5,193 nucleotides of DNA from a virus (Duplodnaviria; Heunggongvirae; Uroviricota; Caudoviricetes). Positions within the stretch are counted from its first letter, which is position 1, and every line of letters begins with the position of its first letter. The notes under the pieces were generated by a model, which was not told the origin of the DNA, ran no database searches, and saw only the letters and a program-made list of their open reading frames with translations. Shown here one piece after another: positions 2 to 5,193 of this stretch. The position numbers and the translations under genes were made by a program. The stretch is from IMG/VR virus record IMGVR_UViG_2897358383_000001, positions 1 to 5,193 of that record, one strand, 5' to 3'.

Positions 2-328
2 CCAACGTTAAAATTACCTGATTTACGCGGTGAGTTTATCCGTGGTTGGGATGATGGGCGAGGTGTGGATGCGGGAAGGGTCATCTTAAGCATACAGGGG
101 TGGTTAACAGGAAGTCATTATCATAATATTCGGTCATGGGACGCGTGGGATAACACGGTATTGGTGCCAAATGACAGAGGGGGGGATAGCCTGTTGTCGA
201 CAGATAACGCCGTCCAAGAAGGAGCGATTAATGGTAAATTTACCAGTCAATACAGAACGGAGTTATCTGGGGGGAATGAAACCCGCCCACGTAACATTGC
301 CTTCAATTATATTGTGAGAGCAGCATAA
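2..328 (+). CDS. Tail-fibre protein, C-terminal variable (receptor-binding) cassette A; 5' end lies upstream of the window
   Basis: Frame is open from position 2 to TAA at 326-328 (the GTG at 65 in the ORF track is internal). Translation PTLKLPDLRGEFIRGWDDGRGVDAGR...ETRPRNIAFNYIVRAA carries the Mu S / P1 S-type motif and the same C-terminal 16-mer as the - strand cassettes. Its stop overlaps the next start (TAATG). Confidence 0.8.
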   Translation, partial: PTLKLPDLRGEFIRGWDDGRGVDAGRVILSIQGWLTGSHYHNIRSWDAWDNTVLVPNDRGGDSLLSTDNAVQEGAINGKFTSQYRTELSGGNETRPRNIAFNYIVRAA

Positions 329-1941: not shown

Positions 1942-1995
1942 AATCCCTACCTATACCAACGATGTATTTTTAACTAAACAAAGAGGTTGTTTTTC

Positions 1996-2568
1996 ATGCA
2001 AATTGGCTACATTCGTGTGTCAACAAATGACCAAAACACAGATTTACAAAGAAATGCACTGAACTGCGCAGGATGTGAACTGATTTTTGAAGATAAAATA
2101 AGCGGAACAAAGTCAGCCAGACCAGGCTTGAAAAAGCTGCTCAGAACGTTATCAGAAGGAGATACGCTGGTTGTCTGGAAGCTGGATAGGCTTGGCAGAA
2201 GTATGAAACACCTTATCACGCTTATAGAGGAGTTGCGGGAAAAAGGTGTTAATTTCCGTAGTCTGACAGACAGTATTGACACATCAACACCCATGGGGCG
2301 TTTCTTTTTTCACGTCATGGGGGCTTTAGCAGAAATGGAACGTGAATTAATTGTTGAGAGAACACTGGCCGGACTGGCAGCTGCACGCGAACAGGGACGC
2401 ATTGGCGGACGTCGCCCGAAGTTGACAAAAGAACAACATGAGCAAATAGCGAGGTTGATCGAAAATGGCTACAGCAGGAAACAGTTGGCAATTATTTACG
2501 ATATCGGTGTATCGACGATTTATCGTTATCATCCTGTAGAGAAGCGCCAAACTCAATCTGAGCTGTAA
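1996..2568 (+). CDS. Serine DNA invertase, Gin/Cin/Pin/Hin/Min family
   Basis: 190 aa from ATG 1996 (the track start at 1987 is an upstream TTG), with AAGAGG 9 nt upstream. MQIGYIRVSTNDQNTDLQRNAL... contains the catalytic-serine motif, the conserved VVWKLDRLGRSMKHL and GRFFFHVMGALAEMERELI blocks, and a C-terminal HTH (GYSRKQLAIIYDIGVSTIYRY). Confidence 0.95.
   Translation: MQIGYIRVSTNDQNTDLQRNALNCAGCELIFEDKISGTKSARPGLKKLLRTLSEGDTLVVWKLDRLGRSMKHLITLIEELREKGVNFRSLTDSIDTSTPMGRFFFHVMGALAEMERELIVERTLAGLAAAREQGRIGGRRPKLTKEQHEQIARLIENGYSRKQLAIIYDIGVSTIYRYHPVEKRQTQSEL
2017..2080. promoter_or_regulatory. Candidate recombinational enhancer (Fis-binding sites) inside the 5' end of the invertase gene
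   Basis: Position by analogy with hin/gin/cin enhancers. Near-palindrome GTCAACAAATGAC at 2019-2031; GCGCAGGATGTGAAC at 2066-2080 fits the degenerate Fis pattern G-N2-Y-R-N2-W-N2-Y-R-N2-C; centres are about 48 bp apart. Confidence 0.3.
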
Positions 2569-2688
2569 TTCTAATGCCGCGTCGGTGTAATTTATCTTGA
2601 TAGAATAGGTACATTTATCGCGCGGCACATCAATTCGATGTATCTAGCGCCTGCTGACCGCTAATGAAAACTGTCCTCGAAATGTTGT

Positions 2689-2707
2689 CCCTAGCCCGAG
2701 ACTAGGG
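2689..2707. other. Perfect 6-bp palindromic hairpin CCCTAG-N7-CTAGGG in the invertase-downstream intergenic region
   Basis: Stem 2689-2694/2702-2707, 7-nt loop, no T-tract after it. Could be a protein-binding palindrome or a weak terminator. Confidence 0.25.
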
Positions 2708-3003
2708 TATCACCTCTGGAAAGCATACGCAGAACCTTTTTTAACCCAGGGTGCCCAGCCTTTTTGCTGCTCGCCTTATTCGCAAAAATTAGCTCACATC
2801 CTGCGCTTTCAAGTGCTTTTCACTGCATAGCTGTGTTTTGTTCATTTGTCTATATGCGTACATAGCCTATTAGCATATTTTCTGCCCACTATCGTTATTT
2901 ATTGCAAGCTACAGGTTTTAATTAACAAAACCAGTGTGTGTGGAAATCACAAAGTGCATACCGTTCTCAGATGTTGTTCAACTTACTGTTGTATAGGTAA
3001 AAA

Positions 3004-3267
3004 ATGACATTTTATGTACATATCGTGATGTTATCCCTTCTTGGTGGGGTGTATTCGTATTTGAGTGGGCTATGTGAAAACCGTTACGAGTCTTCATGCA
3101 AGAAATTGCTGGCCGAATGTATTTCCGCCGTACTTGCTGGCTTTATTGGCATGTATCTCGCGGAATATAAGGATATGAATGAAAGCCTTCAGAGCTGCAT
3201 GGTTCTTATTTTCAGCGCCAATAGCAGGCTTATTATTGAAGGTTCCAAAAGTCGGTTGAATAGGTAA
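3004..3267 (+). CDS. Small membrane protein, holin-like paralogue of the following gene
   Basis: 87 aa, AGG 6 nt upstream of ATG. Two clear hydrophobic helices (FYVHIVMLSLLGGVYSYLSGL; LLAECISAVLAGFIGMYLA) and a charged C-terminus. Aligns with the 3342-3671 product in the pattern LLxxxGGxxxxL..R..S..LLxxxxExxxAVxAGxxxxYL...ASN. Confidence 0.45.
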   Translation: MTFYVHIVMLSLLGGVYSYLSGLCENRYESSCKKLLAECISAVLAGFIGMYLAEYKDMNESLQSCMVLIFSANSRLIIEGSKSRLNR

Positions 3268-3315
3268 GTCTCTTATGCAACATAACCGGTTGAGAAGTTA
3301 CTTTGCATACCATTA

Positions 3316-3335
3316 CCTCCTGACAACGTAGGAGG
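3316..3335 (+). promoter_or_regulatory. Hairpin occluding the Shine-Dalgarno sequence of the 3342 gene
   Basis: CCTCCT (3316-3321) pairs with AGGAGG (3330-3335) across an 8-nt loop; the paired GGAGG is the only ribosome-binding site, 6 nt before GTG 3342. Confidence 0.35.
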
Positions 3336-3341
3336 GAACTT

Positions 3342-3671
3342 GTGCTTGACACACAGGAATTAGCTCCAGTTGCTATTGCGCTCCTGCTTTCAGTAATTGG
3401 TGGGATAGGCACGTTCCTGATGGATGTCCGAGACGGTCGCCAGTCTGGCAATTTGTTGGGATTGGTTACGGAGATCTTTGTTGCAGTGACAGCTGGCGCG
3501 GTGGCGTACCTATTGGGGCAACACGAGGGCTGGGAGTTATCCATTACGTACTTAATGGTAACGATAGCCAGCAATAACGGTCATGAGGTGATTTCAGGGA
3601 TGAAACGAGTGAATATCGATAGCATTCTGAATGTTCTTACAAGTTTGGTGAAAAAGGGAGGCGGGAAATGA
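3342..3671 (+). CDS. Putative phage holin (small 2-3 TM membrane protein)
   Basis: 109 aa, GTG start with strong GGAGG. TM segments LAPVAIALLLSVIGGIGTFLM and LLGLVTEIFVAVTAGAVAYLLG, a weaker third, and a Lys-rich hydrophilic C-terminus (LVKKGGGK). Stop overlaps the next start (ATGA). Confidence 0.65.
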   Translation: MLDTQELAPVAIALLLSVIGGIGTFLMDVRDGRQSGNLLGLVTEIFVAVTAGAVAYLLGQHEGWELSITYLMVTIASNNGHEVISGMKRVNIDSILNVLTSLVKKGGGK

Positions 3672-4111
3672 TTGGCTGGGGTGTATGCGTTCTTGCGTTA
3701 GCCTTAGCCGATCGCTATTTGCTAAAACGCAAGGACATCACGCATTTAGAACTTGGTGATGTGGAAATTAAACCGGGTTTCATCCGGGTGCCGTTCAAAT
3801 ACCGGTCTAAATTCCCGTTTTTGCGCGGCGCAACGGTCAGATATTGGATCCGCGATGTTCAGAAGCCGACGACAGTGATTGAAGGCGAACAACGTTGTTT
3901 GACGTCGGCTGAACAGGGCGAAAACAGTGAATGGTTGTACATACCCACTGAATATATGGGTAAAGGAGAGCGACTGTGGCATTTCAACGTCATGGTTACG
4001 CATGGCGACTCGTTCATTAACCCGTTGTATCGGATTTTCCCTGTTACTCAGCAAATCCGCAGAAGTTACGTAATAAATCTCGCACAGGATGTGTCAGATG
4101 ACGAAAAATAA
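3668..4111 (+). CDS. Hypothetical protein with N-terminal membrane anchor, translationally coupled to the holin-like gene; possible holin regulator
   Basis: 147 aa, ATG 3668 overlaps the upstream stop, AGGGAGG 6 nt upstream. N-terminus IGWGVCVLALALA is hydrophobic, the rest hydrophilic. The function is inferred only from position after a holin. Confidence 0.6.
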   Translation: MIGWGVCVLALALADRYLLKRKDITHLELGDVEIKPGFIRVPFKYRSKFPFLRGATVRYWIRDVQKPTTVIEGEQRCLTSAEQGENSEWLYIPTEYMGKGERLWHFNVMVTHGDSFINPLYRIFPVTQQIRRSYVINLAQDVSDDEK

Positions 4112-4700
4112 GTATGCAACGGTCGATTTTGACCAGGTTAATGAAAAGGGGCTGAAATCCCTTATCGCGGCGATCAATAAAACCGGTGTTACGGTAATTG
4201 AGGTTGACTCCAGCAACCGCGCAACAACGAAAGATGGCGTTAAAGTTAAAACCGCAAAGCTGGTTCTTAACGACGGACAAATTCTTGCCATACAGGTAAA
4301 CGATACTGGCGATATATCGTCTGTGAGGCTGAATGGAAAAGCTATTCCTAACGCTCAATCGCCGGATATCAAGACGCTTGGTACCGTCATGGGGCAAGCG
4401 GCCCGCAAAAACTCCGCAAAATTCCAGAAATCACTGATCGCCAAAGCGAAACGTGTTGCCAATCCGGTAGACAAGAAACCGGCAGTAAAATCCAACTTTC
4501 AGCGCCTGCAAGAGGCAAAACAGCGGAATGCTCAGGTGGTTGCCGCTTATAAATCAGCGCAGAACTCGGTGTCTTTCAATCAACAGCAGATCACTGATTT
4601 GCGGGCGAAGCTGGATAAGGAGACAGGCCGACTCAATAACGAAAAGGCCCGAAATGGCGAACTCAAACGCCGTCTTAAGCAACTGAAAGCAGGAAATTAA
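4098..4700 (+). CDS. Hypothetical Lys-rich protein with C-terminal coiled-coil-like region
   Basis: ATG 4098 preferred over 4089 (AGGA 8 nt upstream); the start lies 14 nt inside the upstream gene. 200 aa, MTKNKYATVDF...; C-terminal third is rich in K/R/Q/E/A (QRLQEAKQRNAQVVAAYK...LRAKLDKETGRLNNEKARNGELKRRLKQLKAGN). Confidence 0.65.
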   Translation: MTKNKYATVDFDQVNEKGLKSLIAAINKTGVTVIEVDSSNRATTKDGVKVKTAKLVLNDGQILAIQVNDTGDISSVRLNGKAIPNAQSPDIKTLGTVMGQAARKNSAKFQKSLIAKAKRVANPVDKKPAVKSNFQRLQEAKQRNAQVVAAYKSAQNSVSFNQQQITDLRAKLDKETGRLNNEKARNGELKRRLKQLKAGN

Positions 4701-4701
4701 C

Positions 4702-5193
4702 ATGGAACAGTTCAATATCAATAAAGGGGTGACGATCAAGCCTGGGCTTGACGTGCTTCCCCCGCCAGTGACTGATGATGAATATCGCGCATTAATGGCC
4801 GGTGAGGACCGCTATCTGATGACGGAATCCAACACCCTGGAGGAAATCGAGGCTACGTTCTTCTATGACACGCCGATCCACTGGTGTGCTACGGATTTAC
4901 TGGAGGCGATTAGTTCTACTCGTTTGCAGTTACACCGGACCATGCAGGCATTTGTCCGGGCATTGAACCAGAAGCTGAATGGTACCGGAATCTCTGCGGG
5001 GAGTGATAAAACGGGGGATGTGGCCCAGAGCGGCGCGCGCGCGATCGGCGGTGCTGAAATTGGCCGGGCACGGAACGTTAACGGGCTGCCGGTCCTGCCA
5101 GCCATTATTCCGCTCAGTGATGGTCAGACTATCAGCATTCTGTTTCATAGCCCGACAGCGGAAAACCGGATCACCAATAGCGATACGCTGGTT
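4702..5193 (+). CDS. Hypothetical protein, 3'-truncated by the window (at least 164 codons)
   Basis: ATG 4702 is 1 nt after the upstream TAA with AGGAAA 5 nt upstream. Frame is open to the window end (MEQFNINKGVTIKPGLDVLPPPVTDDEYRALMAGEDRY...). It is absent from the ORF track only because no stop falls inside the window. Confidence 0.65.
   Translation, partial: MEQFNINKGVTIKPGLDVLPPPVTDDEYRALMAGEDRYLMTESNTLEEIEATFFYDTPIHWCATDLLEAISSTRLQLHRTMQAFVRALNQKLNGTGISAGSDKTGDVAQSGARAIGGAEIGRARNVNGLPVLPAIIPLSDGQTISILFHSPTAENRITNSDTLV

What the first reader, a model, noticed from the sequence alone, without database searches (positions are those of the whole stretch)
3004..3671. Two tandem paralogous holin-like genes
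The 87-aa and 109-aa products share a recognisable alignment across both transmembrane helices (LLxxxGGxxxxL...LLxxxxExxxAVxAGxxxxYL...ASN), and both have charged C-termini. Tandem paralogues of this kind could be a holin/antiholin pair or two holins of different timing. No endolysin is in the window, so the lytic enzyme must be elsewhere.
Basis: partly seen in the sequence, partly recalled or inferred. Interest (0 to 1): 0.6.

Follow-up and report, generated by a model that had tools for sequence, protein, structure and literature searches.

The report
Phage P1 holin genes lydC and lydA

Summary
ORFs 3004-3267 (87 aa) and 3342-3671 (109 aa) are real, paralogous genes for two-helix membrane proteins. 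They share 30% identity (Smith-Waterman z = 16 against shuffles). Both pass the gathering threshold of Pfam PF16083, the LydA holin family, and both fall in holin family phrog_1527.

The window is a P1-like phage (Punavirus), 99.9% identical to Escherichia phage vB_EcoM-813R1. Gene order is invertible tail-fibre segment, invertase, decayed cin remnant, lydC, late promoter LPdar, lydA, lydB, hdf, darA.

- **LydA:** 100% identical to P1 LydA, the main canonical holin.
- **The 87-aa protein:** a common allele of LydC, identical in at least 127 plasmids. P1's own LydC allele was shown in 2022 to be an accessory holin.
- **Antiholin:** this is the unrelated LydB, encoded by the next gene (3668-4111), not LydC.

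Verdict: already known, low interest. Minor residual points: lydC is a sharply bounded divergence island beside a nearly invariant lydA, it is absent from more distant relatives, and a hairpin buries the lydA ribosome-binding site only in read-through transcripts (untested).

The parts
2700..2876 (-). Decayed 5' remnant of a P1-type cin invertase gene. It marks the left boundary of the lydC region.
   Evidence: Aligns to the 5' end of P1 cin. Its translation, MLIGYVRI*TNEQNTAMQ*..., has in-frame stops. The same remnant is annotated as a short 'DNA invertase' in phage SJ46.
3004..3267 (+). lydC, 87-aa allele: accessory holin, paralogue of LydA. A weak Shine-Dalgarno AGG lies at 2995-2997.
   Evidence: PF16083 38.6 bits (gathering score 28.4). 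phrog_1527 E = 6e-28. Annotated LydC in vB_EcoM-813R1. Identical in at least 127 plasmids. 67% identical to P1 LydC over a 73-residue core. dN/dS 0.40. Two hydrophobic segments.
3295..3313 (+). Late promoter LPdar: Lpa-type -22 box AAGTTACTT (3295-3303) and -10 TACCAT (3308-3313).
   Evidence: Exact match to the pattern. The flanking region is near-identical to P1, 98% over 3283-3332. The position corresponds to the annotated LPdar of P1 and P7 (alignment).
3316..3335 (+). 7-bp hairpin CCUCCUG/UAGGAGG that pairs the whole lydA Shine-Dalgarno AGGAGG (3330-3335). Its 5' arm lies where LPdar transcripts should start.
   Evidence: Fold -10.7 kcal/mol, z = -2.1, 5 of 200 shuffles as good. Any function is inferred, not tested.
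3342..3671 (+). lydA, 109 aa: main canonical holin.
   Evidence: 100% identical in protein to P1, P7 and SJ46 LydA, with 1 nucleotide difference from P1. PF16083 30.1 bits. phrog_1527 E = 4e-49. Two hydrophobic segments.
3668..4111 (+). lydB, 147 aa: LydA antagonist (antiholin). Its start overlaps the lydA stop codon (ATGA).
   Evidence: PF16084 E = 8e-104 over the full length. phrog_1898. 2 amino-acid differences from P1 LydB.
4089..4700 (+). hdf, an Hdf-like antirestriction / head-associated protein; next gene of the dar operon.
   Evidence: DarA_N PF18788 E = 1.5e-21. phrog_1620 E = 4e-80. Same position as P1 hdf.
4702..5193 (+). 5' part of darA, running off the end of the window.
   Evidence: Open frame starting MEQFNINKG... 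two bases after the hdf stop. Two 25-nt stretches of it occur exactly within the P1 darA region of L001 (P1 layout).

Best explanation
The window comes from a P1-like temperate phage-plasmid (Punavirus). The finding covers lydC and lydA, two paralogous two-helix holins of the LydA family.

Proposed mechanism:
1. lydA is the first gene of the late dar operon (lydA-lydB-hdf-darA...), transcribed from the Lpa-dependent late promoter LPdar, which lies between lydC and lydA.
2. LydA accumulates in the inner membrane late in infection. At a critical level it forms large holes that collapse the proton-motive force.
3. Hole formation triggers lysis by the SAR-endolysin Lyz, which is encoded elsewhere in the genome.
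4. LydB, translated from the overlapping next gene, antagonises LydA and delays triggering.
5. LydC is a second, accessory holin encoded outside the late operon. It adds to the holin pool and sharpens or advances lysis timing, with a contribution that depends on host and growth conditions.

Shown here: gene identity, paralogy, family membership, two hydrophobic helices per protein, promoter position, synteny, and conservation under purifying selection.

Taken from published P1 experiments:
- LydA is the main holin and supports the canonical lambda R endolysin.
- lydC mutants lyse late.
- Cloned lydC or lydA is toxic.
- LydB delays lysis.

Inferred: that the 87-aa LydC allele in this window (67% identical to the tested P1 allele, with a shorter C-terminal tail) does the same job.
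For: - DNA is 99.9% identical to Escherichia phage vB_EcoM-813R1, where these genes are annotated LydC, lysis determining protein, LydB and Hdf. It is 92% identical to P1.
- LydA is 100% identical to P1 LydA, and LydB has 2 substitutions.
- Both small proteins pass the PF16083 gathering score and share phrog_1527.
- The paralogue alignment has z = 16.
- Each protein has two hydrophobic segments of transmembrane length and a basic C-terminus.
- LPdar matches its pattern exactly and the flanking DNA is near-identical to P1.
- lydC dN/dS is 0.40, and the identical 87-aa protein occurs in at least 127 plasmids.
- Experiments in PMC9025707 show that LydA is the main holin, LydC and LydD are accessory, LydD is a pinholin, cloned lydC or lydA is lethal, and LydB is an antiholin.
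- CRISPRi plating efficiencies in P1 were lydC 1.1, lydA 0.12 and lydB 0.023 (PMC10695390).
Against: - The allele tested experimentally is the 93-aa P1 LydC, not this 87-aa allele. The two differ at a third of core residues and in the whole C-terminal tail, through a frameshifted stretch and an earlier stop.
- No convincing sigma-70 promoter or C1 operator was found upstream of lydC here, so when this lydC is expressed is unknown.
- LydC's first hydrophobic segment is only marginal on a 19-residue window (1.51).
- In one P1 background, loss of lydC slightly accelerated lysis (PMC9025707), which does not fit a purely lysis-promoting role.
Confidence: 0.93

Rival explanations
1. LydC is mainly a regulator of LydA, an antiholin-like or timing partner. 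It would form mixed oligomers with its paralogue rather than holes of its own, making the pair a holin/antiholin couple.
For: - The two proteins align across both helices, so mixed assemblies are plausible.
- In P1 with lyz replaced by lambda R, loss of lydC slightly accelerated lysis of E. coli, and the authors mention a possible timing role (PMC9025707).
- LydC alone cannot support plaque formation.
Against: - In wild-type P1, lydC mutants lyse later, not earlier, in both E. coli and Enterobacter cloacae.
- Cloned lydC is itself lethal.
- LydC contributes to lysis with the canonical R endolysin in E. cloacae (PMC9025707).
- A dedicated antagonist, LydB, already sits next to lydA.
- There is no lambda-type dual-start arrangement; lydC is a separate gene.
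Confidence: 0.12
2. LydC is a pinholin. It would make small depolarising channels that release the membrane-tethered SAR-endolysin Lyz, rather than large holes.
For: - P1's endolysin is a SAR-endolysin, which needs only depolarisation (PMC9025707).
- LydC has two helices like the pinholin of phage 21 (established knowledge, not tested here).
- Its first helix is weakly hydrophobic and rich in Gly/Ser/Tyr.
Against: - P1 already has a demonstrated pinholin, LydD, next to lyz.
Confidence: 0.08
3. The 87-aa ORF is a decaying, non-functional duplicate, or a chance ORF, in a variable region.
For: - lydC is dispensable for plaque formation (plating efficiency 1.1 under CRISPRi, PMC10695390).
- It is absent from the more distant relatives D6, JK004, pCFSAN001636 and pCF5125-2.
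- It lies in a region reported as highly variable (PMC9603915).
- Its tail is frameshifted relative to P1.
Against: - The frame is intact and identical in at least 127 plasmids.
- dN/dS is 0.40 at dS 0.44.
- It scores above the Pfam threshold.
- P1 lydC mutants have a lysis-delay phenotype, and the cloned gene is toxic (PMC9025707).
Confidence: 0.03

Closest known systems
LydA holin of bacteriophage P1 (Pfam PF16083, Phage_holin_3_3; phrog_1527)
   Same: The 109-aa protein at 3342-3671 is 100% identical, with the same GTG start, the same Shine-Dalgarno sequence, the same LPdar promoter, and the same overlapping lydB downstream.
   Different: Nothing of substance: one synonymous nucleotide difference.
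LydC of bacteriophage P1 (93 aa; accessory holin, Bednarek et al. 2022, PMC9025707)
   Same: Same position between the invertase region and LPdar. Same family and two-helix layout. 67% identical over a 73-residue core.
   Different: - 87 aa rather than 93 aa.
- The N-terminal few residues differ.
- A 1-nt and an 11-nt deletion plus an earlier stop give a different, shorter C-terminal tail (EGSKSRLNR versus EKLQRIIDSYLNRNAS).
- This allele has not itself been tested.
- Upstream, the working invertase is co-directional here, whereas P1 cin is divergent.
LydC of phage P7 (94 aa)
   Same: Same locus, same flanks (cin 5' end, LPdar), and a recognisable two-helix alignment.
   Different: Highly divergent. 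The DNA is only about 50% identical across the gene, and the P7 protein is not recovered by tblastn at E < 1e-3. P7 carries an annotated C1 operator, Op(lydC); no operator-like site was found in this window.
LydB antiholin of P1 (Pfam PF16084)
   Same: The gene at 3668-4111 is a full-length match, E = 8e-104, with 2 substitutions relative to P1. It is the real antagonist partner of LydA.
   Different: It is unrelated in sequence to the holins, unlike the lambda S107/S105 dual-start pair. How it acts is unknown (PMC9025707).
Lambda S105/S107 and phage 21 S68/S71 holin-antiholin pairs
   Same: Small membrane proteins that set lysis timing. A second, related polypeptide modulates the first.
   Different: Those pairs arise from two start codons in one gene. 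Here the two related proteins are separate, 30%-identical genes separated by the LPdar late promoter, so that lydC lies outside the late operon, and the antagonist is a third, unrelated protein.

Membership tests
Pfam PF16083 Phage_holin_3_3 (LydA holin family) | Whole-protein HMM score at or above the curated gathering score (28.4 bits) | tested here: met
   LydC 38.6 bits (residues 7-71). LydA 30.1 bits (residues 12-85)..
PHROG phrog_1527 (holin) | Best-scoring PHROG for both proteins | tested here: met
   E = 6.3e-28 (LydC) and 4.3e-49 (LydA).
Holin (functional class) | Small protein with at least one transmembrane helix and a hydrophilic, charged C-terminus | tested here: met
   87 and 109 aa. 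Two Kyte-Doolittle segments each. Net +3 and +2 over the last 20 residues..
Holin (functional class) | Expression is lethal, permeabilises the inner membrane and allows endolysin-dependent lysis | not testable with these tools
   Published for P1 LydA (identical protein) and for the P1 allele of LydC (67% identical core) in PMC9025707. Not shown for the 87-aa allele.
Class II holin (two transmembrane helices, both ends cytoplasmic) | Exactly two membrane-spanning helices | tested here: inconclusive
   Each protein has two clear hydrophobic segments. LydC also has a third, short segment that reaches the threshold on a 15-residue window (residues 64-78, 1.59); the aligned stretch of LydA does not reach it. 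LydC's first segment is marginal at a 19-residue window (1.51).. PMC9025707 also predicts two helices.
Class II holin (two transmembrane helices, both ends cytoplasmic) | N-in, C-in orientation | not testable with these tools
   Only charge counts are available: a basic C-terminus, and an N-terminus with no positive charge.
P1 dar-operon lysis module | Gene order invertase region - lydC - LPdar - lydA - lydB - hdf - darA | tested here: met
P1 late (Lpa-dependent) promoter | -22 inverted-repeat box followed by a -10 hexamer, as annotated for LPdar | tested here: met
   AAGTTACTT-TGCA-TACCAT at 3295-3313, an exact match to the pattern, in DNA 98% identical to P1 over 3283-3332. Lpa dependence itself was not tested.
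LydB antiholin (Pfam PF16084) | Full-length HMM match above the gathering score, immediately downstream of lydA | tested here: met
   344 bits, positions 1-147 of 147. Start overlaps the lydA stop.
Dual-start holin/antiholin (lambda S type) | Antiholin is an N-terminally extended product of the same gene | tested here: not met
   LydC and LydA are separate genes, 30% identical, 74 nt apart, with the LPdar promoter between them.

The most novel reading that the evidence does not exclude
Two linked, untested ideas.

(a) lydC is an exchangeable allelic cassette. It is sharply bounded by the cin remnant and LPdar, with dS 0.44 against 0.012 in lydA. Its variants would tune lysis timing to different hosts while LydA and LydB stay invariant.

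(b) The 7-bp hairpin that buries the lydA Shine-Dalgarno sequence exists only in RNA reading through from lydC. LPdar transcripts should start inside its 5' arm. Translation of the lethal main holin would then be confined to late transcripts.
Probability: 0.15. Interest if true: 0.35.

Novelty: already known. Interest (0 to 1): 0.1.

Why it matters
It matters little as a discovery. lydA and lydB were described in the 1990s, lydC was annotated in the 2004 P1 genome, and all three holin-like genes were dissected genetically in 2022 (PMC9025707).

The useful outcome is a correct label for this window: a P1-like phage-plasmid lysis and antirestriction operon. It also corrects one point, that the antiholin is LydB, not LydC.

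The small open questions would interest P1 and lysis specialists only. They are what the divergent LydC alleles do, when lydC is expressed, and whether lydA translation is gated by RNA structure.

Tried and rejected
- **BLASTP of the two proteins:** no alignment. I set this aside as a false negative because Smith-Waterman with shuffles and two profile libraries agree on homology.
- **NCBIfam:** no model matched any of the three lysis proteins.
- **Solved structures:** no relative of LydA.
- **C1 operator consensus ATTGCTCTAATAAATTT, up to 3 mismatches:** none in the window.
- **Sigma-70 scans upstream of lydC:** nothing convincing. The only decent match (3209-3236) lies inside the 3' end of lydC.
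- **A late-promoter-like box upstream of lydC (AACTTACTG...TATAGG, about 2981-2997):** considered by eye and rejected. It fails the pattern at 2 mismatches or fewer, and it would place the transcript start on the ATG.
- **The anti-Shine-Dalgarno hairpin in relatives lacking lydC:** the hairpin is absent there, but a crude accessibility measure did not separate the groups. Left as inconclusive.
- **The P1 genome paper (Lobocka 2004):** could not be read.
- **A literature search for the holin superfamily classification:** nothing useful.
- **The large protein-database searches and structure prediction:** deliberately not run, because the identification was already unambiguous.
- **The antisense ORF 3233-3574 (113 aa) and the upstream ORF 2846-3007 (53 aa):** treated as mechanical ORFs. 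They overlap or abut annotated genes, and neither is annotated in the related phage records I inspected.

Full report
**What is in the window.** A 147-aa ORF follows at 3668-4111, with its ATG overlapping the stop codon of the 109-aa ORF, and then a 203-aa ORF at 4089-4700. A megablast of 2569-4200 against phage genomes gives 99.9% identity to Escherichia phage vB_EcoM-813R1. It gives about 92% identity to P1 from window position 2700 onward, with the underlying genes annotated LydC, LydA, LydB and Hdf. The annotated P1 and 813R1 records confirm the order lydC, late promoter LPdar, lydA, lydB, hdf, darA. The open frame starting at 4702 is the 5' part of darA.

**Checking the observation.** The BLASTP tool found no alignment between the two small proteins. 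A plain Smith-Waterman alignment scores 94, with 24 identities in 79 columns (30%). One thousand shuffles gave mean 25, maximum 50, so z = 16. This matches the 29-30% quoted in the P1 annotation and literature (PMC9025707).
- Both proteins exceed the gathering score of Pfam PF16083, 'LydA holin'.
- Both have holin family phrog_1527 as their best match.
- Kyte-Doolittle profiles give two hydrophobic stretches of membrane-spanning length in each protein, a short charged loop, and a basic C-terminus.

The 87-aa ORF is conserved: the identical protein is encoded in at least 127 plasmid records and 152 are at least 95% identical, and all listed hits at that level are annotated as a phage holin family protein. 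Its divergence from the P1 allele shows purifying selection, with dN/dS 0.40 at dS 0.44.

**What it is.**
- The 109-aa protein is 100% identical to LydA of P1, P7 and SJ46.
- The 147-aa protein is LydB (PF16084, E = 8e-104, two substitutions relative to P1).
- The 87-aa protein is an allele of LydC, 67% identical to P1 LydC over a 73-residue core. A 1-nt and an 11-nt deletion plus an earlier stop give it a different, shorter tail.
- The Lpa-type late promoter LPdar (AAGTTACTT, four bases, TACCAT) lies at 3295-3313, between the two holin genes, matches the pattern exactly, and lies in DNA that is near-identical to P1.
- lydA has a strong AGGAGG Shine-Dalgarno sequence at 3330-3335. lydC has only AGG at 2995-2997.

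**How it works.** The mechanism comes from published work on P1 (Bednarek et al. 2022, PMC9025707).
- LydA is the main canonical holin. Without it P1 does not lyse E. coli in liquid culture, and it is required when lyz is replaced by the cytoplasmic lambda R endolysin.
- LydB delays LydA-dependent lysis.
- LydC and LydD are accessory, and LydD, encoded next to lyz, is a pinholin.
- lydC mutants lyse late in both E. coli and Enterobacter cloacae.
- Cloned lydC or lydA is toxic.
- The endolysin Lyz is a SAR-endolysin encoded in an unlinked late operon.
- A CRISPRi screen of P1 gave plating efficiencies of 1.1 for lydC, 0.12 for lydA and 0.023 for lydB (PMC10695390).

For LydA and LydB the transfer to this window is direct, because the sequences are identical or nearly so. 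For the 87-aa LydC allele it is an inference.

'Tandem paralogous holins' and 'endolysin elsewhere' are right. [quoted passage not shown] I could not find a convincing sigma-70 promoter or a C1 operator upstream of lydC here, whereas P7 has an annotated Op(lydC). 'Holin/antiholin pair' is not the established relationship, because the antagonist is LydB, the next gene. A minor regulatory role for LydC is not excluded, since lysis was slightly faster without lydC in the lyz::R background.

**Comparative context.**
- lydC is a sharply bounded island of divergence. Identity between the window and P1 is 54-86% across 2948-3282, then 98-100% from 3283 onward. Against P7 it is about 50% across the whole gene.
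- LydA is at least 99% identical in 468 plasmids. LydC falls into at least three allele classes.
- The variability of the lydC-cin-tail-fibre region has been reported before (PMC9603915).
- More distant relatives with LydA at 43-74% identity go straight from the upstream gene (an invertase in three of the four) to lydA, with no lydC. These are D6, Cronobacter phage JK004, Salmonella pCFSAN001636 and Citrobacter pCF5125-2. lydC therefore looks like a lineage-specific duplication in the P1/P7/SJ46 group.

**A side observation.** A 7-bp hairpin (3316-3322 with 3329-3335, -10.7 kcal/mol, z = -2.1) pairs the entire lydA Shine-Dalgarno sequence. The LPdar -10 ends at 3313, so late transcripts should begin at about 3320, inside the 5' arm, and could not form the hairpin. 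RNA reading through from lydC could form it. This would restrict translation of the lethal holin to late transcripts. The sequence is invariant among P1-like phages, so covariation cannot be assessed. The hairpin is absent in the lydC-less relatives, but a crude accessibility measure did not separate the two groups. It remains a hypothesis.

**Verdict.** This is a correct observation of an already known, experimentally characterised system. It is novel only at the level of an untested LydC allele and two small hypotheses. Interest is low.

Noticed in passing
window 2700-2876 (- strand) and 1987-2568 (+ strand): A decayed 5' remnant of a P1-type cin gene, with in-frame stops, sits just upstream of lydC. 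The intact invertase is a different, Pin/Hin-like serine recombinase on the opposite strand from P1 cin. The layout matches Salmonella phage SJ46 and suggests replacement of the invertase and tail-fibre module by recombination.
   Followed up: partly
window 3316-3335: A 7-bp hairpin CCUCCUG/UAGGAGG buries the lydA Shine-Dalgarno sequence. Its 5' arm coincides with the expected LPdar transcription start, so only read-through RNA from lydC would carry it. It is identical in P1 and P7 and absent in relatives without lydC, but the accessibility comparison was inconclusive.
   Followed up: partly
window 3668-3724 (LydB residues 1-19): The LydB N-terminus, MIGWGVCVLALALADRYLL, is hydrophobic (Kyte-Doolittle 1.62 over 19 residues, 1.93 over 15). 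It resembles a signal or anchor segment, although the literature states that LydB has no predicted transmembrane domain.
   Followed up: no
window 2948-3282 versus 3283 onward: The divergence boundary is sharp. lydC differs from P1 by 14-46% per 50-nt block and from P7 by about 50%. Everything from just upstream of LPdar onward is 98-100% identical (dS 0.44 in lydC, 0.012 in lydA). This looks like an old allelic cassette exchanged by recombination.
   Followed up: partly
L006 (JK004), L007 (D6), L008 (pCFSAN001636), L009 (pCF5125-2): Relatives with LydA at 43-74% identity keep lydA-lydB-hdf-darA but have no lydC between the upstream gene (an invertase in three of the four; a 226-aa hypothetical protein in JK004) and lydA. 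lydC therefore appears to be a duplication specific to the P1/P7/SJ46 lineage.
   Followed up: partly
window 11-97, 267-329, 943-994, 1233-1297, 1448-1509, 1697-1783; also 902-921 and 1986-2005: There are three copies of the conserved tail-fibre C-terminal end (...ETRPRNIAFNYIVRAA), in both orientations, along with other long inverted repeats. A 20-nt inverted repeat has one arm at the invertase start. This indicates a multi-cassette invertible host-range segment; the crossover sites were not mapped.
   Followed up: no
window 3209-3236: The only sigma-70-like match in 2500-4200 (TTTTCA, 16 nt, TATTAT; 9 of 12) lies inside the 3' end of lydC, upstream of LPdar. The scan found fewer such sites than expected by chance, so it is probably meaningless.
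   Followed up: no
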